In this document: piece after piece, positions 4,751 to 53,975 of the stretch
Layout of the letters: the number at the start of each line of letters is the position of its first letter
Numbering within the stretch: position 1 is the first letter of the stretch
Assembly: GCA_016183805.1 (NCBI GenBank)
Contig: JACPDX010000034.1
Span: forward strand, 1,122-65,121
From: Bacteroidota bacterium
Lineage (GTDB): Bacteria; Bacteroidota; Bacteroidia; Flavobacteriales_E; Vicingaceae
Length of the DNA: 64,000 nt
Direction: 5' to 3'
Translations under genes and position numbers: made by a program
Notes under the pieces: generated by a model
Seen by the model: only the letters and a program-made list of their open reading frames with translations
The model's database searches: none
What the model was told of the DNA's origin: nothing

Positions 4751-4832
4751 GCAGGCGTGGTGGAAGTGGTAGACACGCTAGACTTAGGATCTAGTGCCGC
4801 GAGGTGTGAGAGTTCGAGTCTCTCCGCCTGTA
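4751..4832 (+). tRNA. tRNA-Leu (anticodon UAG)
   Basis: Acceptor GCAGGCG/CGCCTGT, anticodon arm CTAGA-CTTAGGA-TCTAG, long variable arm, T loop TTCGAGT, discriminator A; full CCA not encoded; upstream of tig as commonly found. Confidence 0.96.
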
Positions 4833-40709: not shown

Positions 40710-41570
40710 ATGAATTTAAAAAATGTAAAAACAATCCTATTAGTATCAGTTTTAGTGCTGTTATTTTCTTGTAAAGATGAAGAAATGGAAAATAAAATTG
40801 CTGATTTAGAAAATCAAAATACAGAATTGAATAACGGTTCAACAGAAAAAGACAATCAAATTGAAACCTATATTCAGTCGTTGAATGAAATTCAAGACAA
40901 CTTGGCTGCAATTAAAGAAAAGCAAAAAATTGTTACTTCTAGCTTTAACATGGGAAAAGGTGAATTAAATACCAATGTTAAAGACATGATTATTAATGAT
41001 ATGGGTTTGATTAATAATTTATTGGAAGAAAACAAACAAAAACTTGCGTCCTTAAATTCCAGATTAAAAAAATCTAATTTAAAAATTACTGAATTAGAAA
41101 AAATGATTGAAAACATGGCTTCACAGCTTCAAGAAAAAGATGCTGAAATAGTTAGTTTACAAACACAATTAGCTAATGCCAATGAACAATTAAAAGTCTT
41201 GTTTGAGGAATACAACAACAGACTTGAAGAAATTGGAACTCAGACTGATAAAATGAATACCGCATATTATTGTTTTGGAACTTCTAAAGAACTTAAAGAA
41301 AAAGGAGTTTTAACCAAAGAAGGCGGTTTTATTGGACTAGGTAAATCTGAAAAATTATCTGCTGATTTTAACAAAGATTATTTTACCCAAATTGATATTA
41401 CTTTAATAAAATCTATCGATTTAAAAAGTAAAAAGGCTAAAGTGATTACTACTCATGCCACAGATTCGTATAAAATTGAAGGTGACAAAGTATCAGTTGA
41501 TAAACTGGTAATCACAAATCCGGAAAAATTTTGGGCATCTTCAAAATACTTGGTTATTGTTGTAGAGTAA
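40710..41570 (+). CDS. Coiled-coil surface lipoprotein (Cbp1-like)
   Basis: Lipobox LFS-C, long heptad region, YCFGTSKELK, ADFNKDYFTQIDI, FWASSKYLVIVV. Confidence 0.72.
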   Translation: MNLKNVKTILLVSVLVLLFSCKDEEMENKIADLENQNTELNNGSTEKDNQIETYIQSLNEIQDNLAAIKEKQKIVTSSFNMGKGELNTNVKDMIINDMGLINNLLEENKQKLASLNSRLKKSNLKITELEKMIENMASQLQEKDAEIVSLQTQLANANEQLKVLFEEYNNRLEEIGTQTDKMNTAYYCFGTSKELKEKGVLTKEGGFIGLGKSEKLSADFNKDYFTQIDITLIKSIDLKSKKAKVITTHATDSYKIEGDKVSVDKLVITNPEKFWASSKYLVIVVE

Positions 41571-41614
41571 AATAACATCGTAGCCCAAGTTTAAACTTGG
41601 GCTACGATGTTATT
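41571..41614. repeat. Perfect 44-bp REP-like palindrome between convergent genes
   Basis: AATAACATCGTAGCCCAAGTTT/AAACTTGGGCTACGATGTTATT; overlaps the GT4 stop. Confidence 0.8.
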
Positions 41615-42903
41615 TTATTTAAAAGAGTAGCAAAATCTCCTGCTAATTTTTTTCTACTGTATTTTTCGAAATCTTCGCTATTAATGTGGAGGTTTTGTTT
41701 TTTATACCCTTCGTAATATTGAGTTAAACTATTTTTTAATCCTTCATCATCATTAAAATCCACAACAACTCCAGCTTTCGATTCAAGTATTATTTTTGCT
41801 GAATCTCCGGCAGGTTTTCCAATACAAAGTATAGGACGTTTTGCACCTAAATATTCATATAATTTACCCGGCACAACCCCATTGATATTAGGGACATCAT
41901 TTAATGGTAAAAGCAATAATTGGGATTTAATTAATTCATCAATCACTAGTTGATGAGGAAGGTGGTTTATCCTATTTAAATTCGTTTCTAAACCAAAATG
42001 TTTGATATCATCAATTGCTGAAATATCAAGTTGCCCAATAAATTTAATTTCCAAATCTTCATCAAAACCAACAATTTCATTTTTCAACTCCTTTAAAACT
42101 TCCCACAATATTTTGGGGTTTCGATCTTCATTTAAAGAACCTGCATGAGTGATGGTGAATTTTGTATCTAAAATGGGATTTGATGGAGATTTAAAATCTT
42201 CAGGGTCAAAACCATTGGTAATAACTTCAACATCTCTATCAATCAATTTTTTAAAATCTTTTGCCCAGCTCCAACTAACTGTTACTATTTCAGTGGCATG
42301 TTGCAAAACTTTTTGTTCAAGTTTACGATGTTTTTTATCTGCCCATTTTGATAGCATTAATTTGTGATAAAAGTCGATGTTTGTCCAAGGGTCTCTAAAA
42401 TCGGCTATCCAAGGAATTTTATGTTTTTTGGTTATGTTATATGCAATAAGATGAGTAGAGTGAGGTGGTCCGGTCGAAATAATGGCATCAATTTTATGTG
42501 TAGCCAAATAATTGATAAGAAATTTGCTCGATGGTTTTATCCAAAACATTCGAGCATCGGGAATAAACACATTTCCACGAACCCAAACCGACAGTTTTTG
42601 TAATGCTGAATTTCCTTTACTTTCTTGTCCTAATCCTGGAGCAATTTTTTCGTCTTTATGTTTGCCTAATAATTTTTTATAAAGTGAAAAAGGTTCCCAT
42701 ATCGGTACTCTTAACGTTTCAATGTTTTTTGGGATTTCACTTAGCATACTTTCATCAACGACCGATGCCTCGCCATTTTCAGTTGTGAAAATCACAGGTT
42801 CCCAACCAAAATCTCTCAAATATTTGGTAGTTTTTAACCAACGCTGAACTCCACCTCCACCCATAGGAGGCCAATAATAAGTAATGATTAAAACTTTTTT
42901 CAT
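41602..42903 (-). CDS. GT4-family glycosyltransferase
   Basis: VLIITYYWPPMGGGGVQRW, STGPPHS, ADFRDPW, PGKLYEYL; ATG 42903 preferred. Confidence 0.9.
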   Translation of the reverse strand: MKKVLIITYYWPPMGGGGVQRWLKTTKYLRDFGWEPVIFTTENGEASVVDESMLSEIPKNIETLRVPIWEPFSLYKKLLGKHKDEKIAPGLGQESKGNSALQKLSVWVRGNVFIPDARMFWIKPSSKFLINYLATHKIDAIISTGPPHSTHLIAYNITKKHKIPWIADFRDPWTNIDFYHKLMLSKWADKKHRKLEQKVLQHATEIVTVSWSWAKDFKKLIDRDVEVITNGFDPEDFKSPSNPILDTKFTITHAGSLNEDRNPKILWEVLKELKNEIVGFDEDLEIKFIGQLDISAIDDIKHFGLETNLNRINHLPHQLVIDELIKSQLLLLPLNDVPNINGVVPGKLYEYLGAKRPILCIGKPAGDSAKIILESKAGVVVDFNDDEGLKNSLTQYYEGYKKQNLHINSEDFEKYSRKKLAGDFATLLNKITS

Positions 42904-42910
42904 GAATAAA

Positions 42911-43909
42911 TTAAAATTTAGCACATGGAGCAAAAAACTTTGCTTTTCTCTTTTTTTTCTTTTTTGTAGCTATCTCGTAAATTAAAGATATCTCATGTGA
43001 TCCATATGAGTTTGCTGCTAATCTAGAAATAGTTGCGTCATAACTATATCCAATACTCATGTTCAAATCGATAAACGAATAGCCTAAAATTATTGAAACT
43101 GCATCGTTGTTAAGAACACCTTCATAAGACTTTATTAAAGGGAGCCCTCTATACCAAACACCAAAAACAAAAGGTTCTTGAGTGTAATATAAACCTAAAT
43201 CAAGTTGGTCGAATTTATTTTGTGCTTTATAATGAAAAGCTACATTAAAGTATTTAGCGGTATTTCTTTTTTCTCCATCGGCTAAGGTGTATTTATATCC
43301 ACCATGAGCAGAAAATTTCAAGTATAGAGGGCTCTCATTGTTGGTTAACGATTGGTTGGGTTGATTGATATGGTTAAAAGCAAAACCTCCCCAAAATTTC
43401 TCATTGTACAATAAAATACCAGTACCAAGGTCTAGATAAGACTGATTTTCTAAAGCAAATGATTCGGTTGTGACTCCATCGGTATAAAGTTGGTCGTTAA
43501 AAATTAAGTCAGAATAATCTAAACCAGTTCGGATGTAATTAAATTTTAAACCCGGTTGAATCCAAACTTTTTCTTTTAATTGAAATCGGTATGCGTATAA
43601 TGCTCCAATTTGTGTTGTGGTTAAAGGCGATGAGCCAGCTCGTTCTTGCCCAACTAATAATCCTATTCCACTATTAAATTCTGCAAGGTTGTAATCATAC
43701 GAAAACAGCATGTTGTTAAAATGACCAGGAATTCCAGCCCACTGATTTCGATAATTTGCGATAAAACGATGTTCAATAGTTGAACCAGTAAATCCAGGAT
43801 TCAAATATAAAGGAGCAGCATTAAATTGAGTGAATTGCATGTCTTGTGCAAATCCAAAAATGGAAAAGCAAATAAGAATTAATGACAGTATTAACCTTAG
43901 TTGAAGCAA
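42911..43909 (-). CDS. PorP/SprF-family T9SS outer-membrane protein
   Basis: QDMQFTQF..APLYLNPGFTG, YRNQWAGIP, IGYSYD, GSHEISL. Confidence 0.92.
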   Translation of the reverse strand: MLQLRLILSLILICFSIFGFAQDMQFTQFNAAPLYLNPGFTGSTIEHRFIANYRNQWAGIPGHFNNMLFSYDYNLAEFNSGIGLLVGQERAGSSPLTTTQIGALYAYRFQLKEKVWIQPGLKFNYIRTGLDYSDLIFNDQLYTDGVTTESFALENQSYLDLGTGILLYNEKFWGGFAFNHINQPNQSLTNNESPLYLKFSAHGGYKYTLADGEKRNTAKYFNVAFHYKAQNKFDQLDLGLYYTQEPFVFGVWYRGLPLIKSYEGVLNNDAVSIILGYSFIDLNMSIGYSYDATISRLAANSYGSHEISLIYEIATKKKKKRKAKFFAPCAKF

Positions 43910-45450: not shown

Positions 45451-48400
45451 TTATCTTAATAATGTAATATCGCCTACAAATGTTTCAGATCTACCATCTA
45501 CAAATGTAACTTGAATTTTATATACATACACATCTTGTTGTACGAGTTTTTCACGATAATAACCATCCCAACCAATTTTAATGTCGTTACTCACAAAAAG
45601 TAATTCTCCCCACTTATTAAAAACATTCAATTCATAGGTTTCAGCACCAAATATGATTGGGTGAAAAACATCGTTATCAAGATTTCCTGCAACTATAATT
45701 CCGCCTGTACTACCGCCAGAATTTGGAGTAAATGCGTTTGGTATTTTTATAATTCCTTCTGCTTTTGCTTCAACTGCCGAAACTATTCTAAAAGTATCTT
45801 TACAGTTATTTATTGATGTGGCAATTAATGAAATATCAAAAAATCCGGGCTGTGTATAAAAATGTTGTGGGTTTAAATCGGACGAAGTAGTTCCATCACC
45901 AAAATCCCATGCATAAGTTGATGCAAATTCACTTAGATTGTAAAGGGAAATTGCCTGACTAGGAATAGTTACCACCGAAGGGGTTACTGTGAAAAATGCA
46001 CTTGGAATTTGATAAACTTCAATAATTTGTGTTTGTATTTGAGTGTCAACTCCACCATCGCCAGTTGCTGTTAATGTTACAGAATAAATACCGGGATTAT
46101 AATAGGTATAATTAGGATTAACTTGAGTCGAAAAATCTCCATTTCCAAAATTCCAAGTGTATTGATTGGCGTAAAGCGAATTATTAACAAACTGAACCCG
46201 TAAAGGACGACAACCTGTTGCTGATCCATTAAAACTTGCTATGGGAACAGGTGGGATAATTTGTATAGTTTGAAAAGCTGTATCAGAACAATAAGTACCA
46301 CTTACAATAACACTTATATCAAAATCACCCCAAGTTGCATAAATGTGATTTGGTGGAGAAGGTAAAATGGATGTTGTGGTATCTCCATAATTCCAATTGT
46401 ATTGCCATGTTCCAAAAGAGGTGGTGTTGGATATGGATATAGCAGTACTTGGAAAAGTCTGACTAGAAGGAGAGGCAATAAATGAAGCAACAGGCGTAGT
46501 GTGTACAGTAATGTTTTGATATAATGTATCTCTACATCCATAAAAAGATTCGGCAATTAAACTCGCTGCATAAGTAATGTCAGATGGGGAAGTGTTAGTA
46601 TATACATGGCTTGGACTAGGGGCATTATCTAATGCTGAACCATCGCCGAAATTCCAAATAAACGTATTTGCTCCTATGGAAGTATTTACAAAATTAATTG
46701 TTAACGGACTACAGCCTGAAGAATCTGAAATAAAATTAGCGACAATTTCGGGATAAACAGTAATGGTTTGAGTCGCCGTATCTAAGCAACCATTGGTTGT
46801 TTCCGAAATGAGCGTAATGGTGTAGTTTTGTACAACTCCGGTATTGTTAACATAGGTATAATTAAAATTTGGAGCTAACGTATCGAAAACAGTTCCGTTA
46901 CCTAAATTCCAGTGGAAAATATTACCATTTGATGAGTTGTTGCTTATTGTTATTGGAAGTGGTTGGCAACCAACAATAGTATTTGTGTTAAATAATGCAA
47001 TAGTTGGTGGATACACCAAAATCTGTTGAAAAACAGTATCAAAACAACCATAAACAGATTCAATAATTAATCTCACATTAAAATATTGATTTACAACTCC
47101 TGTATTAATAAATTGATGTGTTGGGTTTGGTGAATTATTTATTGGTGAACCATCACCAAAATCCCAATAATGATTGACTGCACCAATTGATAAACTCGTA
47201 AATGTTGTTGTAAATGGAGTACATCCAAAAGTATCTGCCTGCATTAATGCTGTAACATCCGGATAAATAGTTATTAGCTGGGTTGCGGTATCTTTACAGC
47301 CTTGATTGGTTTCTGCTATTAATGTGGTGTTTATATTTTGTAACATACCACTGGTATTGGTGTAAATATGAGTAAAACTAGAACTAAGTGTATCAAAAGT
47401 TGTTCCATCACCTAAATTCCAATGATAGAAAGAACCTCCGGTTGAATTATTGGTAAAAGTTATAGGAAAAGGATGACAACCATTGGTATCATTTACGGTA
47501 TATTGTGCCAAAGGGTTTGGAAAAACTAAAACCTGACCATAAGTGGTGTCTGTACATCCAAAAGGTGATGTTGCAGATAAGGTAACATTATATATTAAAT
47601 TGTTGGTTAAATTGTTGGTAAAAGTATGACTTGGAGTAGGTCCGGAACCGATAGTACCATCACCAAAATCCCAGTTGTAGACAACCGCTCCAATAACTGA
47701 AGGAAAAGTAACAACTAAAGGGCTACAACCTGAATCTGGGCTAATACTAAAACCAAATTGCGGTTCAGGATAAACAGTAATGGTTTTTGTTATTGTATCT
47801 AAACAGCCGTTTGAGCTAGTAGCGGTAAGAAGTATTGTGTAATTATTGATGAACAATGTTAGGTTTTGATAAATATGAGTGGGGTTATTACTGTTATTAA
47901 TTGGAGAACCATCACCAAAATCCCATGTTTGAGAAACATGCCCGGTGGAAGTGTTGGTAAAATTGACCACCAAAGGGGCACAATCCAACAAGGCATTATC
48001 AGTAAATGAAGCTATTGGGTTTGGAAAAACAGTGATAGGATTTATAGAAGTATCGGTGCATCCAAAAGTAGTTTGAGCAATTAATTGAACTTGATAAGTG
48101 GTATCTGTTCCAAAAGTGTTGGTAAAAAGATGAGAAGGGTTTGAATTGGTATCTAAGGGAGAGCCATCACCAAAATTCCAAGAAAAATTAACGGCATTTA
48201 TTGATGAAGTATTAGTGAAATTAACCAATAAATCAGCACAACCATTGTTTGTGTCGGTAGTAAAATTTGCAACAGGAATGTTTTCAACGTTAATTTGAAC
48301 GGTATCGGTTCCCGAACAGAAGGCTGTATTCACTATCAAAATCATGTCGTAGAAACCGGGCAGACTATAAATATGATTTGGATTTTGCTGAGTGCTTGTT

Positions 48401-49992
48401 GTACCATCATCGAAATCCCAATTCCATGAAATTATCGGGTCGCCAATGGCTGATGTTGAGTTGTCAAAAAATGTAGCTATAGCATTTACACATACACTTG
48501 TTGGCGTAAAAGCAGGTACAGGTGATTGGTAAACCGTTAAAACCCTTGTTCTGCTATGAGTACATCCATTTAAATTTTCAACGGTAAGTTGAACATTATA
48601 ATTTCCGGGTGAGCCATAAAATTGTGTGGGTGGGTTTTGTAGTGTGCTTGTGACGGTATTCCCAAAATCCCAATTCCACGAAATAGCGTCGGCTGATGAA
48701 GTATTCGTAAAATTAACGTACATACTGTCGCAACCATTATTGTTGTCGAAAGTAAAATTGGCCACAGGGCTATTTAAAACATGTAAGTTAACAGAAGCAG
48801 TATCAGAACAGCCTCCACTTCCACCTGTAATATTTGCAACAATATTAATGATGTAATCACCAGAATTGGCATAAGTATGAGTTACATTTCCTCCAGCGGA
48901 AGCAATCCAACCTGAACCATCGCCAAAATTCCAAAAATAAGAGTTGGCTCCGACTCCCGATAAATTATTGAAAGTAACAGTTTGTCCTTCACAAATGGTA
49001 TCAATGGAAGCTGCTAATGCTGCAAAAGGAGGGGCTACAATTTGGATAGTAATGTATGCAGTATCTAAACCACAAAAACTACTGTCCACCATCATTACAT
49101 CATAAGTGCCAATTCCAGGATATGCCATGGTATAGGGCAGAGCAGGAGGCCAAGGCACCCATCCCACAATAGAATCGTAACCATTTCCCCAGTAATCGCC
49201 AAAATTCCACCATTCGTAACGTTGGGCAATATTTCCTTGAGCTAAACAATTTCTATTGGTAATATTATTAAAAGTAACTTGAGTATCGGGGTAACACAAT
49301 AAAGTTGCAGAAGCATTTATTGCAGCATCATCAATGTCCCAAATTCGTATTGGATTAAATGTTGCGGTACTACTTCCTCCTTGTACAGTATTACAATAAT
49401 TTTCGGCAGTTAAAGTTACTTGAGTAACACAATTAACGGTTCCTTGTAAATAGGTATGAGAAATGGTTTGCCCAACGTTGGTGTAATCGGTAATTAAAAG
49501 AGGGCTTCCATCTCCAAAATCCCAAGTAAATGTTGTAGTTTGAGAAGTGTTTGTACTGCTATTTATAAATTCTAAAGGCGATGGAGCACAAGTTTGAGTT
49601 AACCCACCAACAGGAATTTGAATAGACGCACTTGTTGCTTGTTCCATAACTACAACTCCTTGTATGATACACCCTGTTGAGGTTTCTGTAAACACCACAT
49701 TAAACGTATCAACGGTAGAATTATAAAGGTGAGAGATGTTATTACCCGGTATTAGAGAAGCTCCATTGCTAATGGGACTTCCATCACCCCAATCTATTGT
49801 CCAGCTCCCAATTACATCTGGAGAATTAATGTTTAAGGTAAAGTTGTTACCGCTACAATCAAACCAATATGGATTATTGTTTGGGTTACCGTAAAAATCG
49901 TTAAGTTGTGGACATTGGGCAAATATGGAACTGCTACTTATAAAAAGCATTAGAATAACGACATATTTCACCATGTGTTTTATCATTCTCAA
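45451..49992 (-). CDS. Multi-PKD-domain protein with type-B (gliding-motility-associated) C-terminal domain
   Basis: Many WDFGDG/WNFGDG PKD repeats; CTD IPNAFTPN...NDVF...FNKWGELLF...GWDG...DVYVYKI...GDITLLR; start may be ATG 49986 or 49974. Confidence 0.93.
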   Translation of the reverse strand: MRMIKHMVKYVVILMLFISSSSIFAQCPQLNDFYGNPNNNPYWFDCSGNNFTLNINSPDVIGSWTIDWGDGSPISNGASLIPGNNISHLYNSTVDTFNVVFTETSTGCIIQGVVVMEQATSASIQIPVGGLTQTCAPSPLEFINSSTNTSQTTTFTWDFGDGSPLLITDYTNVGQTISHTYLQGTVNCVTQVTLTAENYCNTVQGGSSTATFNPIRIWDIDDAAINASATLLCYPDTQVTFNNITNRNCLAQGNIAQRYEWWNFGDYWGNGYDSIVGWVPWPPALPYTMAYPGIGTYDVMMVDSSFCGLDTAYITIQIVAPPFAALAASIDTICEGQTVTFNNLSGVGANSYFWNFGDGSGWIASAGGNVTHTYANSGDYIINIVANITGGSGGCSDTASVNLHVLNSPVANFTFDNNNGCDSMYVNFTNTSSADAISWNWDFGNTVTSTLQNPPTQFYGSPGNYNVQLTVENLNGCTHSRTRVLTVYQSPVPAFTPTSVCVNAIATFFDNSTSAIGDPIISWNWDFDDGTTSTQQNPNHIYSLPGFYDMILIVNTAFCSGTDTVQINVENIPVANFTTDTNNGCADLLVNFTNTSSINAVNFSWNFGDGSPLDTNSNPSHLFTNTFGTDTTYQVQLIAQTTFGCTDTSINPITVFPNPIASFTDNALLDCAPLVVNFTNTSTGHVSQTWDFGDGSPINNSNNPTHIYQNLTLFINNYTILLTATSSNGCLDTITKTITVYPEPQFGFSISPDSGCSPLVVTFPSVIGAVVYNWDFGDGTIGSGPTPSHTFTNNLTNNLIYNVTLSATSPFGCTDTTYGQVLVFPNPLAQYTVNDTNGCHPFPITFTNNSTGGSFYHWNLGDGTTFDTLSSSFTHIYTNTSGMLQNINTTLIAETNQGCKDTATQLITIYPDVTALMQADTFGCTPFTTTFTSLSIGAVNHYWDFGDGSPINNSPNPTHQFINTGVVNQYFNVRLIIESVYGCFDTVFQQILVYPPTIALFNTNTIVGCQPLPITISNNSSNGNIFHWNLGNGTVFDTLAPNFNYTYVNNTGVVQNYTITLISETTNGCLDTATQTITVYPEIVANFISDSSGCSPLTINFVNTSIGANTFIWNFGDGSALDNAPSPSHVYTNTSPSDITYAASLIAESFYGCRDTLYQNITVHTTPVASFIASPSSQTFPSTAISISNTTSFGTWQYNWNYGDTTTSILPSPPNHIYATWGDFDISVIVSGTYCSDTAFQTIQIIPPVPIASFNGSATGCRPLRVQFVNNSLYANQYTWNFGNGDFSTQVNPNYTYYNPGIYSVTLTATGDGGVDTQIQTQIIEVYQIPSAFFTVTPSVVTIPSQAISLYNLSEFASTYAWDFGDGTTSSDLNPQHFYTQPGFFDISLIATSINNCKDTFRIVSAVEAKAEGIIKIPNAFTPNSGGSTGGIIVAGNLDNDVFHPIIFGAETYELNVFNKWGELLFVSNDIKIGWDGYYREKLVQQDVYVYKIQVTFVDGRSETFVGDITLLR

Positions 49993-50035
49993 TTAATACG
50001 TAAATTTGCAAAAAAAGGTACAGATAATCAAGGTT

Positions 50036-51268
50036 TTAACCTTTAAAAGTGATGAATAAAAAATATATCGTAAAACCAATAAAATAAATTATTCCCATAC
50101 CACTCAATATTTTCATGTAAATGTTGGGTTGATGTTCTTTAGGAACCTCGGAACTGGTAATGACCATATAATTTAAAATTGCAATAACAGGAGAGGTCAT
50201 AAAGGCTAAAATGGTTGTAAAATCGATTAATGTTCGCATGTTTGTCATAAAATAAGCAATAATAATGGTTACCCCAAATAATAATAGAATTAACCAAATC
50301 CAATATTGTCTTTTTTCATTAATGTTTGGGTTCAATAGTTTTAAGGTGGACGCTAAAATTCTTGGTTGAGCATCTAAACAAGTTATAGTTGTACTTAACA
50401 TGGTTGTAAAAGCAGCTAAAGCTATTATTATATAACTCCAAGAACCAATATTTTTAGTATAAATGTTGATTAATTGAGTTGCAAATTTTGGAGCACTTTT
50501 TTCTAATTCAATACCCGAACCGTATATTGACAATGCACCAAGAGCCACAAAACAGAGAGCTAAAACTAACGTGCCCCAGTAGCCAATATTAAAATCCAAC
50601 AACGAAGATTTTAGTTTAAACTTTTTAGTTTCTTTCATTTTTTCAACCGTCCATAACGAATGCCAAACGGATAAATCTAATGGTGCCGGCATCCAACCCA
50701 TTAAAGCAATTAAAAATAAAATATGTGATTTGTCACTGAAAGAAAATGAAGTCATGTATTCCTGATATTGAATATTGTTTCCTGTAAAAGCTGCAACAAG
50801 AGCAATAATGGTTGAAATACTTAATACCAGAATAATCACTTTCATGCTTTTATCAAGCATTTTAAATTTACCTAAAAGTAATATTAGGGTGCAGATTAAA
50901 AGTAAAATGAAAGAAACTAACCACAGCGGAATGGTAAGACCTGTTATTTCTGATGCGATACCGGCAGTAACAATAGTAACAGTAGATTGAATAATAAACA
51001 TGCTGCTAAATGTGATGGCAAGAAATAAATAAATGGGCCATTTACCAAGCGACATGTAACCTTGCAACAAGTTTTTTCCGGTAACAGAAGCATATCTGGG
51101 GCCGTATTCAAAAAATGGATATTTTAAAACATTTGCAAACACAACTGCCCAAACCAATCCATAACCAAATTCTGCTCCGGCTCTTGTGGATTGCACCAAG
51201 TGAGAAACGCCAATGGCAGCACCAGCATAAAGTAATCCTGGACCAAGTATTTTATACCATTTACTCAT
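50036..51268 (-). CDS. Nramp-related (APC-fold) membrane transporter
   Basis: GPGLLYAGAAIGVSHLVQSTRAGAEFG, MGWMPAP, multi-pass; lacks canonical DPGN. Confidence 0.78.
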   Translation of the reverse strand: MSKWYKILGPGLLYAGAAIGVSHLVQSTRAGAEFGYGLVWAVVFANVLKYPFFEYGPRYASVTGKNLLQGYMSLGKWPIYLFLAITFSSMFIIQSTVTIVTAGIASEITGLTIPLWLVSFILLLICTLILLLGKFKMLDKSMKVIILVLSISTIIALVAAFTGNNIQYQEYMTSFSFSDKSHILFLIALMGWMPAPLDLSVWHSLWTVEKMKETKKFKLKSSLLDFNIGYWGTLVLALCFVALGALSIYGSGIELEKSAPKFATQLINIYTKNIGSWSYIIIALAAFTTMLSTTITCLDAQPRILASTLKLLNPNINEKRQYWIWLILLLFGVTIIIAYFMTNMRTLIDFTTILAFMTSPVIAILNYMVITSSEVPKEHQPNIYMKILSGMGIIYFIGFTIYFLFITFKG

Positions 51269-51308
51269 AACACGAAAAAAAAACTAAGGTAATATAAAAA
51301 CTTTGATA

Positions 51309-51490
51309 ACCCATTGTGCATTTAGTAGAATTTTTAATAAAAAAGGTGTCAGTTCGAGTTTTTTCTGAAAGAAAAAGTATCGAGAACACATCTTTTATAT
51401 TGAAAATTTGCCTTCTCGATATAAATTTCTCTTATTTCAATCGTGAAATTCACTCGAATTGACAAATTTTCTTACAAATGCACAAGGGGT
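51309..51490. mobile_element. 182-bp MITE-like element (IS982-type ACCC ends)
   Basis: TIRs ACCCATTGTGCATTT (51309-51323) and AAATGCACAAGGGGT (51476-51490), 14/15 complementary; TTTGATA direct repeats at 51302-51308 and 51491-51497; no ORF. Confidence 0.75.
51348..51463. repeat. Nested inverted-repeat (REP doublet-like) core inside the MITE
   Basis: GTCAGTTCGAGT (51348-51359) pairs with ACTCGAATTGAC (51452-51463); TATCGAGAA (51378-51386) pairs with TTCTCGATA (51413-51421). Confidence 0.75.
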
Positions 51491-51545
51491 TTTGATAGTA
51501 TTTATTTTAAAGTAATTAATTTTAGCCGATACAAAACCTATAAAA

Positions 51546-53975
51546 ATGGATATTTTCAAAAATCAACTCCTTAAACACATCATTGGAGTTTTAGTTTTAA
51601 TTAGTGTTTCGGCGGTCTATTTTTATCCCGAATTACAAGGAAAAAAAATATTGGCACATGATGAGGTAAGTTCAATTGCTGCTGCAAAACAAATGCAGGA
51701 TTATGAAAAGAAAGGGGAAACCATTTTATGGGGAAATACTTTGTTTTCGGGGATGCCATTGTTTCAGGTTGCATACAAAGTAAAAGCAAATTTGCTTCTT
51801 TTTTTTCTCGACACCCACAAACTTTTTCCAAAAGGCATGTGGCTTTGTTTAATGTTAATGCTGGGATTTTATATTAGTTTATCTATTCTGGGTTATAACA
51901 CCGAATGGAGTATTCTTGGAGCTGTAGCATTTTCATTATCCACCTGGTTTTTATTGTCGATAGAAGGAGGGCATACCACTAAAATTATTGCTATTTCATT
52001 TATTCCGCCATTAATTTCCTCCATATTAATTACTTATAAAGGGAAATGGCTAATTGGCGGAGTTTTAACGAGTTTGTTTTTGAGTTTAGCTATTATGGCA
52101 AATCATCCACAAATTGTATATTATTCGTTGTTTTTAATTGCTGCTTTAGTTGTTGTTCAGCTTTTTCAAGCAATTAAAGAAAAAAAACTCCCAGTTTTTA
52201 TTAAACGTTCGTTCATTTTATTGGCTTTCGGAATATTGGGTGTTTTACCAAATATTACCTTATTATGGACAACTTACGACTATAGTTCAGAAACCATAAG
52301 GGGGGGGAAATCGGAATTAACCAAAGAGGTTAAACAATCGACAGGACTAGATATAGATTATGCCATGCAGTGGAGTTATGGCAAAGCAGAAACTTTAAAC
52401 CTATTAATTCCGGGACTTTATGGTGGGGGAGCCAAACTCGATGAAAACTCTGAAACTTATAATGATTTAGCTAAAAAAGGAGTCCCAAAAAATCAACTCA
52501 AAGATTTTCTTAAAAATGTACCGTTGTACTACGGAAACCAACCATTTACAACAGGACCTTCCTACATGGGAGCAGCATTAATTTTCTTGTTTGTGTTGCT
52601 ATTTTTCATTTCAAAAAGCAATTTTAAGTGGGTATTATTATCGGCTACAATAATTTCAATCGTATTTGCTTTCGGAAAAAACTTTTTGGTGATAAACGAA
52701 TTCTTTTTTGACCATGTTCCGATGTTCAATAAGTTTAGAACACCCTCCATGTGGCATTCGTTGGCTATGATTTCTATTACGATGGGAGCAATTACTTCTC
52801 TTCAACTTATTTTTAAAGCGGAAGTTGACAAGGAAAAACTTAAAAAAGGGTTGATTTATTCGATGTCTATTTTAGGTGGATTGGTACTTTTTGTATTGTT
52901 TTTTGGTTCGTCGTTTATTTCTTTTAATGGAGCCTACGATGCTCAGTTAACACAATCAGGAGTTTCTGTTGATTTATTGATTGAAGATAGGATATCGATG
53001 ATGAGATCAGATGCTTATAGAACGTTTTTTATTCTTGCTGCTACTTTCGGAATTCTTTGGTTAATGAATATCCAAAAATTGGCAAATTTAACAGTTGCCA
53101 AAGTATTATTAGCCCTCTTAATTATTGGCGATTTATGGATGGTGGATAAAAGGTATGTAAATGAAGACGATTTTGTAAAAGCTAAATCGGTTGAACAATC
53201 TATTCATGCAACAGCAACCGACCAACAAATATTAACTGACAAAGAATTAAATTACCGTGTTTTTAATACTACGGTAAGTTCGTTTAATGATAACAACACT
53301 TCTTATTTTCATCAATCTGTTGGTGGATATAGTGCAGCTAAATTAATTCGTTATCAGGATTTGATTGAAAATCATTTGAGTAAAGGAAACATGAATGTGT
53401 TTAACATGTTAAATACAAAATATTTTATTACGGGTAAACCCGGTCAAGAAGTGCCTCAACAGAATCCTACGGCTTGTGGAAGTGTGTGGTTTGTAAACCA
53501 AATCGATTGGGCTAAAAACGCCGATGAAGAAATGGCAAAGTTGACTGATTTTAATCCTAAAACTACTGTAGTTATTGATGAGAGATATAAGGAATATTTA
53601 AATGGATTTAATCCTGATTCTACAACAAACGGTTCTATTGTTTTATCCTCTTTTCATCCTGATAAAATGGAATATACTTCAAATTCTACAGCCGACAATT
53701 TTGCTGTTTTTTCTGAAATTTGGTACAAAGGAAATGTAGATTGGAAAGCATATATTGACGGAAAAGAAACTGAATTTATTCGTGTAAATTATTTGCTTAG
53801 AGGAATGAAAATTCCAGCAGGAAAACATGAAGTGAAATTTGAATTTTATCCTAAGCCACACTACGTTGGAAGCAAAATTTCGTTGGCAACTTCTGCAATT
53901 ATTTTAATTATGCTTGCGGGATTAGTGGTAATGTTGGTGCTTAAAAAACCATTGCCCGGAATGAAAGAGGATTAA
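51546..53975 (+). CDS. YfhO-family membrane protein (GT-C-like)
   Basis: 809 aa multi-TM; WGNTLFSGMP, NHPQIVYY, PMFNKFR, GGYSAAKL, C-terminal FSEIWY...RVNYLLRGMKIPAGKHEVKFEF. Confidence 0.87.
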   Translation: MDIFKNQLLKHIIGVLVLISVSAVYFYPELQGKKILAHDEVSSIAAAKQMQDYEKKGETILWGNTLFSGMPLFQVAYKVKANLLLFFLDTHKLFPKGMWLCLMLMLGFYISLSILGYNTEWSILGAVAFSLSTWFLLSIEGGHTTKIIAISFIPPLISSILITYKGKWLIGGVLTSLFLSLAIMANHPQIVYYSLFLIAALVVVQLFQAIKEKKLPVFIKRSFILLAFGILGVLPNITLLWTTYDYSSETIRGGKSELTKEVKQSTGLDIDYAMQWSYGKAETLNLLIPGLYGGGAKLDENSETYNDLAKKGVPKNQLKDFLKNVPLYYGNQPFTTGPSYMGAALIFLFVLLFFISKSNFKWVLLSATIISIVFAFGKNFLVINEFFFDHVPMFNKFRTPSMWHSLAMISITMGAITSLQLIFKAEVDKEKLKKGLIYSMSILGGLVLFVLFFGSSFISFNGAYDAQLTQSGVSVDLLIEDRISMMRSDAYRTFFILAATFGILWLMNIQKLANLTVAKVLLALLIIGDLWMVDKRYVNEDDFVKAKSVEQSIHATATDQQILTDKELNYRVFNTTVSSFNDNNTSYFHQSVGGYSAAKLIRYQDLIENHLSKGNMNVFNMLNTKYFITGKPGQEVPQQNPTACGSVWFVNQIDWAKNADEEMAKLTDFNPKTTVVIDERYKEYLNGFNPDSTTNGSIVLSSFHPDKMEYTSNSTADNFAVFSEIWYKGNVDWKAYIDGKETEFIRVNYLLRGMKIPAGKHEVKFEFYPKPHYVGSKISLATSAIILIMLAGLVVMLVLKKPLPGMKED

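What the first reader, a model, noticed from the sequence alone, without database searches (positions are those of the whole stretch)
51302..51497. 182-bp MITE with ACCC-ended TIRs, 7-bp target duplication and a nested palindromic core
Seen: TTTGATA-[ACCCATTGTGCATTT...AAATGCACAAGGGGT]-TTTGATA. The TIR extends imperfectly to about 27 bp (21/27). Inside are two further inverted-repeat pairs, so the element could fold as a three-tier stem-loop. It sits in the divergent promoter region between the Nramp-like and YfhO genes. Established: IS982-family ends start with ACCC and make short target duplications. Inference: a non-autonomous IS982 derivative carrying a REP doublet, which may alter expression of both neighbours.
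Basis: partly seen in the sequence, partly recalled or inferred. Interest (0 to 1): 0.7.

Follow-up and report, generated by a model that had tools for sequence, protein, structure and literature searches.

The report
IS982-family MITE between two genes
This is a real 182-bp non-autonomous transposon (a MITE) with the end sequences of ISRa1-like IS982 insertion sequences; it landed in the short conserved control region between a metal-transporter gene and a membrane-protein gene of an uncultured groundwater Vicingus bacterium, and it is an ordinary kind of element.

Summary
AAATGCACAAGGGGT / TTTGATA at 51302-51497. It is not chance. The element is 10-25x deeper than its flanks in six groundwater metagenomes. 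Copies of 173-187 bp, 80-97% identical, occur in other Vicingus and Flavobacteriales genomes, with their own AT-rich 7-9 bp target duplications. Three relatives have an intact 84-88 bp intergenic region, one with a single TATCAAA exactly at the insertion point. The family consensus terminus ACCCGTTGTGCATTT is identical to the ends of about 70 full-length (966-994 bp) ISRa1-like elements. Their transposase scores as IS982 (NF033520), and they make mostly 7-8 bp duplications. So "IS982-derived MITE" is supported. "REP doublet" is not: the inner hairpin modules never occur without a terminus beside them, and each arm is colinear with the left end of the IS (terminus, A-tract, TTGTYCA box, hairpin, GTAT box). 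The MITE is two left-end-like arms head to head. No cognate transposase lies in the window, but ~1-kb IS982-like contigs occur in three of four of these metagenomes tested. An effect on the neighbouring genes is plausible but untested. Verdict: new member of a known kind, modest interest.

The parts
51302..51308 (.). Left copy of the 7-bp target-site duplication, TTTGATA
   Evidence: Relatives L124, L125 and L126 have one copy only at this point; L125 has exactly TATCAAA on the other strand.
51309..51490 (.). The 182-bp MITE, 94% identical to the family consensus (11 differences)
   Evidence: Depth 10-25x the flanks and contig breaks at its ends. Full-length copies elsewhere. Identity to consensus. 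Longest ORF touching it is 48 aa.
51309..51323 (+). Left terminal inverted repeat ACCCATTGTGCATTT (consensus ACCCGTTGTGCATTT; position 5 mutated G>A)
   Evidence: Identical consensus at the ends of ISRa1-like IS982 elements.
51345..51392 (+). Left arm module: GGTGT-CA-GTTC-GAGT, hairpin TTTTTCT/GAA/AGAAAAA (51360-51376), then GTATCGA-GAAC-ACAT
   Evidence: Colinear with the IS982 left-end box-hairpin-box layout. The whole module is inverted in copy L079.
51393..51406 (.). Central AT-rich spacer between the two arms
51407..51466 (-). Right arm module, read on the minus strand: TTTGT-CA-ATTC-GAGT, hairpin GAATTTCAC...(G)AGAAATT, then ATATCGA-GAAG-GCAAA. This copy is degenerate against the consensus GAAT-ACAAA.
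   Evidence: The hairpin is replaced by other hairpins (CCGTCAGCTGACGG, TTCCGCAGTATTGCGGAA) in other copies, while the flanking boxes are kept.
51476..51490 (-). Right terminal inverted repeat (minus strand ACCCCTTGTGCATTT; position 5 mutated G>C)
51491..51497 (.). Right copy of the target-site duplication, TTTGATA
51269..51545 (.). Divergent intergenic region. It is 88 bp and strongly conserved in relatives; here it is 277 bp because the insertion splits it 33 bp from the Nramp start codon and 48 bp from the YfhO-like start codon.
50036..51268 (-). Nramp-family divalent metal transporter gene (left neighbour)
   Evidence: (PF01566, 76 bits).
51546..53975 (+). YfhO-like membrane protein gene (right neighbour)
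   Evidence: PF09586, 29.5 bits. Synteny is kept in L124 and L126.

Best explanation
The element is a non-autonomous transposon (MITE) of the IS982 family, ISRa1-like clade.

Shown:
- Its 15-bp termini (family consensus ACCCGTTGTGCATTT) are the same as those of about 1-kb ISRa1-like insertion sequences.
- Copies sit at many different sites, each flanked by an AT-rich 7-9 bp duplication, as the full-length ISs are.
- This copy sits where relatives have an uninterrupted 84-88 bp intergenic region.
- Each arm keeps the layout of the IS left end (terminus, A-tract, TTGTYCA-like box, hairpin, GTAT box), so the element is two left-end-like arms head to head. That is what produces the nested palindrome.

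Inferred:
- An ISRa1-like DDE transposase supplied in trans binds the termini, cuts the target with a 7-9 nt stagger, and repair gives the duplication.
- The insertion predates the split of the window organism from uncultured Vicingus sp. ERP124720_co1_76. The two are 93.9% identical over 8 kb and share the insertion, including the same mutation at position 5 of each terminus.
- In one groundwater population a 192-bp deletion (element, one duplication copy and 3 bp) has probably removed it again.
- The insertion moves the distal half of a conserved divergent control region 189 bp away from each gene, so it probably changes their expression. The direction and size of that change are unknown.
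For: Multi-copy:
- Depth inside 51292-51496 is 55 vs 5 (X1), 520-640 vs 25 (X4) and 555-583 vs 20-27 (X6).
- Contigs break at 51307/51314 and run on into different sequences.

Other copies:
It still gave 21 contig blocks in Vicingus sp. WB02no2_33_17, plus copies in uncultured Vicingus sp. ERP124720_co1_76, Bacteroidetes GWA2_31_9 and three Flavobacteriales MAGs.
- BLAST shows 173-187 bp copies at 80-97% identity.

Target duplications of 17 Vicingus-type copies (16 insertion events, since L097 and the window copy are the same orthologous insertion): 7 bp in 9 (8 independent), 8 bp in 3, 9 bp in 3, 7 bp with one mismatch in 1, none in 1.

Empty sites:
- L124 and L126 (Nramp 77-78% identical, same gene order) have 88 and 84 bp between the genes.
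- L125 (85%) reads AATAAATAC-TATCAAA-GTTTTT, with a single copy of the duplicated heptamer.
- X4 holds both filled junctions and a joint from 51306 to 51499.

IS982 link:
- A 339-bp element with the same termini (L016) still encodes the first 52 and last 34 residues of an IS982 transposase.
- L023 has the C-terminal half of one next to an exact terminus.
- ISRa1 on a Riemerella plasmid is 979 bp, with ACCCGTTGTGCATTA...AAATGCACAACGAGT and a 9-bp duplication. Its transposase scores 262 bits against NF033520, cut-off 130.
- 71 full-length relatives in metagenomes carry ACCCGTTGTGCATT[T/A] at both ends. Where exact duplications are seen they are 7 bp (10), 8 bp (5), 9 bp (1) and 6 bp (1).

Arm architecture colinear with the IS left end.

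IS982-like contigs of 1038-1080 nt occur in the same metagenomes X2, X3 and X6.

An IS982-derived MITE in Bacteroidota has been published: MITECca01 from ISCca4 in Cardinium (PMC9769881).
Against: - No IS982 transposase gene lies in the 64-kb window or in the roughly 30 Vicingus blocks fetched. The IS982-like contigs in the metagenomes cannot be assigned to this organism, and X4 showed none at 80% likeness. A source of transposase in this genome is therefore not shown.
- Beyond about 20 nt the arms resemble the IS left end only in layout and short boxes (10-11 of 14 in the first box), not in strong sequence identity. No full-length IS carries the MITE's TTCGAG / TATCGAGAA boxes. The direct parent is not identified.
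- This copy has a substitution in each terminus and 11 differences from the consensus, so it may no longer be mobile.
- 28 of 61 scorable full-length IS copies in metagenome contigs show no duplication. I attribute this to chimeric assembly of repeats but did not show it.
Confidence: 0.9

Rival explanations
1. The element is a MITE that has been domesticated. It persists here because it now supplies a regulatory function to one or both neighbours, for example a promoter element or an insulating structure in the divergent control region of the metal transporter.
For: - The insertion splits an 88-bp region that is more conserved than the flanking coding sequence among relatives.
- It is retained in two lineages only 93.9% identical to each other.
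- IS982-family members are known to create fusion or outward promoters, for example IS1187-cfiA and ISAba825-blaOXA-58 (PMC9330008, PMC7335449).
- A sigma-70-style hybrid match (TGCACA in the terminus, 18 nt, TATATT in the flank) points at the Nramp gene.
Against: - Promoter-like matches are no more frequent than in shuffles (3 vs 2.2), and Bacteroidota use a different promoter consensus (my knowledge).
- No terminator-like site was found.
- No transcript data exist.
- The element has been lost in one population without an obvious replacement.
- Retention in two lineages is equally expected for a neutral old insertion.
Confidence: 0.12
2. The element is a MITE mobilised by a transposase of another family, and the resemblance to IS982 ends is coincidental.
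For: No cognate transposase was found next to any copy or in the window. Short AT-rich duplications are made by several families.
Against: - The 15-nt consensus terminus is identical to that of dozens of IS982 (NF033520) elements from the same phylum.
- Deletion derivatives with the same termini still carry IS982 transposase fragments.
- The duplication lengths match.
Confidence: 0.03
3. The interior is a REP doublet (BIME-like) that was captured between IS982 ends.
For: Two hairpin-forming modules lie in inverted orientation.
Against: - All 41 module instances in the held DNA lie within 120 nt of a terminus, in fixed orientation. The two other pattern matches look like chance.
- No module occurs elsewhere in the 64-kb window.
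- The modules are colinear with the IS left end.
Confidence: 0.03
4. The element is a native cis-regulatory palindrome or structured leader RNA of the Nramp gene (a metal-sensing operator or riboswitch) that merely looks like a transposon.
For: It lies directly upstream of a metal-transporter gene and folds strongly.
Against: - Relatives with the same gene pair lack it entirely.
- The same sequence sits at many unrelated sites with their own target duplications.
- No Rfam family matched at gathering score, and at E<=10 only weak eukaryotic-type matches appeared.
Confidence: 0.01

Closest known systems
ISRa1 (IS982 family; Riemerella anatipestifer) and its about 1-kb relatives in Bacteroidota
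   Same: - Terminal 14-15 nt: ACCCGTTGTGCATT[T/A].
- AT-rich target duplications, mostly 7-8 bp.
- Left-end layout of terminus, A-tract, TTGTYCA box, hairpin and GTAT box.
   Different: - The window element is 182 bp with no transposase gene.
- Both of its arms are left-end-like.
- Its boxes read TTCGAG / TATCGAGAA, which no full-length IS carries.
- Its hairpins are longer.
MITECca01 / MITECca02 of Cardinium, derived from ISCca4 (IS982 family) (PMC9769881)
   Same: A short (about 240 bp) non-coding element in a Bacteroidota genome, with the inverted repeats of an IS982-family IS, spread to many copies mostly in intergenic regions.
   Different: A different parent IS and host. The paper's text does not give the sequences, so I could not compare them. 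The Cardinium genome holds intact parental copies, whereas no parent was found here.
Internally deleted IS982 copies with the same termini (L016, 339 bp, in Bacteroidetes bacterium GWF2_33_38; also L080 and L103)
   Same: The same 15-nt termini and the same left-end boxes.
   Different: They still contain recognisable transposase coding fragments (52 N-terminal and 34 C-terminal residues in L016). The window element has none.
Foldback-type bacterial MITEs such as the Neisseria Correia element and enterobacterial ERIC (from my knowledge, not tested here)
   Same: A small palindromic multi-copy element in intergenic regions that can fold as one long hairpin and can affect neighbouring transcripts.
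   Different: Unrelated sequences and parent families. No evidence here for promoter, terminator or RNase processing activity.
REP / BIME elements
   Same: Short imperfect palindromes in intergenic DNA.
   Different: REPs are free-standing, lack terminal inverted repeats and target duplications, and are linked to RAYT transposases. The modules here are never free-standing.

Membership tests
MITE (bacterial non-autonomous DDE transposon) | Short (under about 300-500 bp) and without a transposase gene | tested here: met
   182 bp. The longest ORF touching it is 48 aa. No tblastn match to IS982 transposases in the window.
MITE (bacterial non-autonomous DDE transposon) | Terminal inverted repeats | tested here: met
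   14/15 in this copy. Family consensus ACCCGTTGTGCATTT at both ends.
MITE (bacterial non-autonomous DDE transposon) | Target-site duplication that differs from copy to copy | tested here: met
   15 of 17 Vicingus-type copies have exact duplications of 7-9 bp. One more has a 7-bp duplication with one mismatch, and one has none. L097 and the window copy are the same orthologous insertion (TTTGATA); all other copies have different AT-rich sequences.
MITE (bacterial non-autonomous DDE transposon) | Multiple dispersed copies in a genome | tested here: met
   Depth 10-25x the flanks, and contigs diverge at the element ends. At least 21 contig blocks in Vicingus sp. WB02no2_33_17. Not countable for the window's own genome, and there is only one copy in the 64-kb window.
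MITE (bacterial non-autonomous DDE transposon) | Empty site in relatives | tested here: met
   L124, L125 and L126. A joint in X4.
MITE (bacterial non-autonomous DDE transposon) | A cognate autonomous element in the same genome that can supply transposase | tested here: inconclusive
   None in the window or the Vicingus loci. IS982-like contigs of about 1 kb occur in the same metagenomes X2, X3 and X6, but their host is not assigned.
IS982 family (derivative of) | Inverted repeats with 5'-AC ends; conserved AC(N)6T(N)5TT pattern (PMC7335449) | tested here: met
   ACCCGTTGTGCATTT has AC at positions 1-2 and T at position 9. The TT falls at 14-15 rather than 15-16.
IS982 family (derivative of) | Termini shared with elements that encode an IS982 (NF033520) transposase | tested here: met
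   ISRa1 scores 262 bits and the L023 fragment 141 bits, against a cut-off of 130. 71 full-length elements of 966-994 bp have the same termini.
IS982 family (derivative of) | Same target-duplication length as the autonomous elements | tested here: met
   IS copies: 7 bp (10), 8 bp (5), 9 bp (1), 6 bp (1). MITE copies: 7-9 bp. The literature lists variable duplications, 7 bp for IS1187 and ISPrsp2.
IS982 family (derivative of) | Interior derived from the parent IS | tested here: inconclusive
   The arms share the layout and short boxes of the IS left end. No IS holds the MITE-specific boxes.
IS982 family (derivative of) | Mobilisation by an IS982 transposase | not testable with these tools
   Needs a transposition assay.
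REP / BIME | Free-standing palindromic units dispersed on their own | tested here: not met
   41 of 41 credible module instances lie within 120 nt of a terminus.
REP / BIME | Associated RAYT (TnpA-REP) gene | not tested
   No search was made. The window ORFs were not scanned exhaustively.
Known structured RNA (Rfam) | Match to a covariance model at gathering score | tested here: not met
   Only a tRNA at 4751-4832 in the whole window. Nothing credible at E<=10 in 51150-51650.

The most novel reading that the evidence does not exclude
The box-hairpin-box module is a functional unit of ISRa1-like IS982 transposition or its control, not just a relic. In the full-length ISs a small hairpin with many different, compensating stem sequences sits between a TTG-containing box and a TAnATT box just upstream of the transposase start codon. 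In the MITEs of several genera (Vicingus, Chryseobacterium, Tenacibaculum, a Flavobacteriaceae MAG) the flanking boxes TTCGAG and TATCGAGAA are kept while the hairpin between them is swapped or even inverted. If the transposase, or a host factor, recognises this structure, the MITE family would give a handle on the IS982 transposition pathway, which the 2020 review describes as still to be uncovered in detail.
Probability: 0.12. Interest if true: 0.5.

Novelty: new member of a known kind. Interest (0 to 1): 0.3.

Why it matters
For this genome it is an annotation point. The 277-bp gap between the Nramp and YfhO-like genes is an 88-bp conserved control region interrupted by a transposon, and repeat-induced contig breaks in related MAGs come from the same family.

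More generally, it documents a MITE family tied to ISRa1-like IS982 elements that has spread through uncultured Vicingaceae, with relatives in other Flavobacteriales. I found no description of it in the searchable literature. The 2020 IS982 family review does not mention MITEs, and the one published IS982 MITE is in Cardinium.

Filled, ancestral-empty and deleted alleles of one site are all available in public data. That makes it a convenient natural test of how such insertions affect a divergent promoter in Bacteroidota.

Tried and rejected
- Rfam at gathering score on the whole window, and at E<=10 on 51150-51650: nothing relevant.
- Exact-protein look-up of the window's Nramp: not on record. 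Its identical cluster representative gave only a contig that breaks inside the element.
- Looking for a transposase next to the single termini hits in 13 loci: none.
- NCBIfam scan of the 52-aa remnant peptide: too short, no hit.
- The search for homologous proteins with the same peptide: found only itself and cost one search. tblastn of the peptide against plasmids then identified it.
- Literature search for the terminus string: no paper.
- RNA-seq runs for the locus: none listed.
- Sigma-70 promoter and intrinsic terminator scan: 3 promoter-like sites against 2.2 expected, and 0 terminators. The scan is not suited to Bacteroidota.
- By eye I looked for the Bacteroidota -33 TTTG / -7 TAnnTTTG pattern in the filled and empty intergenic regions. 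I found only 7/8 matches (TAGTTTTT before the Nramp gene, TAATTTTA before the YfhO-like gene) and draw no conclusion from them.
- A K-turn-like reading of the tandem G.A / A.G in the module's internal loop: considered and dropped, because a C-G pair separates the G.A pairs from the 3-nt bulge.
- The outer stem of the module (GGTGT/ACACC, TTTGT/ACAAA) covaries within Vicingus copies but is not kept in the other genera.

Full report
WHAT IS IN THE SEQUENCE

The window reads, on the plus strand, TTTGATA (51302-51308), ACCCATTGTGCATTT (51309-51323), 152 further bases, AAATGCACAAGGGGT (51476-51490) and TTTGATA (51491-51497). The termini match 14/15, and 21/27 when extended without gaps. Two inner inverted-repeat pairs of 19 nt are present (I3 84%, I4 79%).

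As single-stranded DNA the 182 bases fold to -37.9 kcal/mol, against -14.7 +/- 2.8 for dinucleotide shuffles (z = -8.4).

The element lies between a minus-strand Nramp gene (50036-51268, PF01566) and a plus-strand YfhO-like gene (51546-53975, PF09586 just above its cut-off).

There is no second copy in the 64-kb window. No Rfam family matches. No ORF longer than 48 aa touches the element.

A 15-nt inverted repeat with one mismatch is not rare here: 18 in the window and 8.5 on average in shuffles. One with an abutting 7-bp direct repeat occurred once in the window and never in 20 shuffles.

ORGANISM

A neighbouring protein carries PKD repeats and a CHU_C type IX secretion domain. The closest Nramp homologues are from Flavobacteriales and Vicingaceae MAGs. 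The locus is found in groundwater metagenomes.

An 8-kb block of "uncultured Vicingus sp. ERP124720_co1_76" (L097) is 93.9% identical to window 45810-53808. The window therefore comes from an uncultured Vicingus-like flavobacterium.

IT IS MULTI-COPY AND DISPERSED

I laid Logan contigs of eight groundwater runs on the locus. In six of them depth rises inside 51292-51496:
- 5.3 to 55.7 in X1 and about 5.4 to 47 in X2.
- About 20 to 208 in X3 and about 25 to 520-640 in X4.
- About 7 to 40 in X5 and 20-27 to 555-583 in X6.

X7 (depth about 4) shows no rise. Contigs stop at 51307-51314 and at about 51485-51490 and run on into different sequences. The only contig that carries the identical Nramp protein also ends inside the element.

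BLAST of the element against these found full-length copies at 80-97% identity:
- Vicingus sp. WB02no2_33_17: 21 contig blocks, many at contig ends.
- Uncultured Vicingus sp. ERP124720_co1_76: L097, L089, L076.
- Bacteroidetes bacterium GWA2_31_9: L058.
- Three Flavobacteriales MAGs: L091, L120, L107.

An alignment of 13 copies has 86% mean column identity. The window copy differs from the consensus at 11 positions, including position 5 of each terminus.

TARGET DUPLICATIONS AND EMPTY SITES

Seventeen Vicingus-type copies were scored. They represent 16 insertion events, because L097 is the same orthologous insertion as the window copy. The flanking repeats are:
- Exact 7 bp in nine (eight independent).
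- Exact 8 bp in three.
- Exact 9 bp in three.
- 7 bp with one mismatch in one.
- None in one.

Apart from the shared TTTGATA, the repeats are all different AT-rich sequences.

I fetched the loci of three Nramp homologues. L124 (78% identical) and L126 (77%) have the same gene order, with 88 and 84 bp between the divergent genes. The window has 277 bp.

In the alignment the relatives run straight through the insertion point. L125 (85%) reads AATAAATAC-TATCAAA-GTTTTT, with one copy of the heptamer that is duplicated in the window. That 88-bp region is more conserved than the adjacent coding sequence.

L097 carries the same insertion at the same site, with the same two terminus mutations.

Run X4 contains both filled junctions (contigs 51277-51343 and 51454-51528) and a contig joining 51306 directly to 51499, at depth 22.6. 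That joint removes 192 bp: the element, one duplication copy and 3 bp that all three outgroup relatives keep. The more distant L097 also has the insertion. I therefore read the X4 allele as a secondary near-precise deletion rather than the ancestral state. This is an inference, because I could not read the contig itself.

WHICH TRANSPOSON FAMILY

The consensus terminus across all hits is ACCCGTTGTGCATTT.

One element with these ends, L016 (339 bp, Bacteroidetes bacterium GWF2_33_38), has an ATG followed by MNNFEASYEKILEFLKTISEKENFLKQIRKPKLSDIELISINFTSEYLSIDS. By tblastn this peptide matches the N-termini of annotated IS982-family transposases on Riemerella (ISRa1), Empedobacter and Bacteroides plasmids at 58-60% identity.

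On plasmid NZ_MN129785, ISRa1 is 979 bp. It begins ACCCGTTGTGCATTA, ends AAATGCACAACGAGT, and is flanked by TTACTATGA on both sides. Its transposase scores 262 bits against NCBIfam NF033520 "IS982 family transposase" (cut-off 130). A half-gene next to an exact terminus in L023 scores 141 bits. L016 also keeps the last 34 residues of the transposase.

A scan of JGI metagenome contigs with an alignment of three such transposases returned 80 loci. In 71 of them an element of 966-994 bp is bounded by ACCCGTTGTGCATT[T/A] and AAATGCACAACGGGT or close variants. Where an exact flanking repeat is present it is 7 bp (10), 8 bp (5), 9 bp (1) or 6 bp (1). Many copies show none, which I attribute to chimeric assembly of repeats without having shown it.

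The IS982 review gives the family features as about 1 kb, 5'-AC ends, the pattern AC(N)6T(N)5TT and variable direct repeats. It lists 7 bp for the Bacteroidota members IS1187 and ISPrsp2 (PMC7335449).

WHAT THE INTERIOR IS

Each arm of the MITE, read inward from its terminus, has:
- An A-rich stretch.
- (G/T)(G/T)TGTCA(G/A)TTCGAG.
- A hairpin.
- GTATCGAGAA, then a short complement of the first box.

Across copies the hairpin is replaced by quite different hairpins: TTTTTCTGAAAGAAAAA, GAATTTCAC...GTGAAATT, CCGTCAGCTGACGG, TTCCGCAGTATTGCGGAA. The flanking boxes stay the same. The pair flanking TTC...GAA changes in step, G-C in left arms, A-T in right arms and C-G in a Chryseobacterium copy. In L079 the whole left module is inverted, and in L086/L088 a hairpin loop is inverted.

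MITEs with the same termini and the same two boxes occur in Chryseobacterium sp. JUb7, a Tenacibaculum genome and a Flavobacteriaceae MAG.

A pattern search over all held DNA (about 1.2 Mb) found 41 modules. Every one lies within 120 nt downstream of a terminus. The two other matches look like chance. None of the 80 IS982 loci has these boxes.

The left ends of the full-length ISs have the same order of parts. They run terminus, A-tract, AAAGTTGTTCATT, a small hairpin with many different compensating stems (GACTT/AAGTC, GCCTT/AAGGC, CTGCT/AGCAG and others; 33 of 49 distinct sequences fold with at least 4 pairs), GTATATTnnTTTG, and then the ATG. An alignment of MITE arms with IS left ends is colinear through these parts.

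I conclude that the MITE consists of two left-end-like arms facing each other. That explains the "three-tier" palindrome without any REP. The identity outside the terminus is low, and the direct parent is not identified.

SOURCE OF TRANSPOSASE

No IS982 transposase is encoded in the window or in the Vicingus blocks fetched.

I laid four of the groundwater runs on a full-length IS (L172) at 80% likeness. Contigs of 1080, 1070 and 1038 nt in X2, X3 and X6 match the conserved 3' part of the transposase gene and the left end. Their loose ends read the IS promoter region and SQLCDQFMI. X4 gave nothing.

ISRa1-like elements are therefore present in these communities, but I cannot place them in this genome.

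EFFECT ON THE NEIGHBOURS

The insertion lies 33 bp (duplication) or 40 bp (element) from the Nramp start codon, and 48 bp from the YfhO-like start codon. It pushes the other half of the conserved region 189 bp away from each gene.

A sigma-70-style scan gives three promoter-like matches against 2.2 expected, and no terminators. One match combines TGCACA in the terminus with TATATT in the flank and points at the Nramp gene. This consensus is not the one Bacteroidota use (my knowledge).

IS982-family members are documented to activate neighbours through fusion or outward promoters (PMC9330008, PMC7335449). No RNA data are available. An effect is plausible but not shown.

COMPARISON AND VERDICT

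The closest known things are ISRa1 and its relatives (same ends, same duplication) and the Cardinium MITECca01/02 derived from the IS982-family ISCca4 (PMC9769881). All defining MITE features that can be tested here are met, except for a resident source of transposase. The REP/BIME reading fails its main test.

This is a new member of a known kind. The finding is correct and well observed, of modest interest, with one mildly interesting loose end: the conserved box-hairpin-box module shared by the IS left end and the MITE arms.

Noticed in passing
L127-L206 (metagenome IS982 loci), first 90 nt of each element; e.g. L138:1156-1245: ISRa1-like IS982 elements have a small hairpin with many different, compensating stem sequences and an A-rich loop. 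It sits between a conserved AAAGTTGTTCATT box and a GTATATTnnTTTG box just upstream of the transposase ATG. It looks like a conserved structure inside the transposase promoter or leader.
   Followed up: partly
L079:4811-4997; L086:3202-3383; L088:7197-7378: Segments bounded by short inverted repeats are flipped in some MITE copies. In L079 the whole left module (GTGT...ACAC) is inverted. In L086 and L088 the loop of the right hairpin is inverted.
   Followed up: no
L040:343-578 and L043:2694-2929: A 236-bp variant of the MITE carries an extra ~54-bp segment (ACCACGAAGTAGCATCAATACAAAAGTTTAAAATAGACAACTGATTGATA) between the arms. Several contig-end copies (L017, L105; L026, L030, L045, L052, L096) continue into this or another shared segment (TTAAACTACTATACAA), so there are further subfamilies.
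   Followed up: no
window 51306/51499, in run X4: The 'empty' allele in one groundwater population lacks 3 bp that all outgroup empty sites keep. The loss is 192 bp rather than 189, which fits a secondary deletion of the MITE between the TA at 51307-51308 and the TA at 51499-51500.
   Followed up: partly
L143:763-1994: A full-length IS982 (903-1880) sits between a second, outer pair of similar termini (763 and 1994). This may be an IS inserted into a MITE-like element of the same family.
   Followed up: no
L121:1415-2393 (ISRa1 on plasmid NZ_MN129785): This ISRa1 copy is flanked by a 9-bp direct repeat, TTACTATGA. The IS982 review table lists DR = 0 for ISRa1.
   Followed up: no
window 41568-41617: A perfect 50-bp palindrome (25-nt arms, no spacer: TAAAATAACATCGTAGCCCAAGTTT / AAACTTGGGCTACGATGTTATTTTA). 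It fills the gap between two convergent ORFs (40710-41570 on the plus strand, 41602-42933 on the minus strand) and slightly overlaps both. It may be a bidirectional terminator.
   Followed up: no
window 45451-49992 (minus strand): A 1513-aa protein with at least 12 PKD domains and a CHU_C type IX secretion signal. Its DNA shows repeats spaced at multiples of about 255 bp.
   Followed up: no
window 51269-51301 and 51498-51545; L124:3913-4000; L126:3917-4000: The 88-bp divergent intergenic region between the Nramp and YfhO-like genes is almost invariant among relatives whose Nramp proteins are only 77-85% identical. This suggests dense regulatory content.
   Followed up: partly
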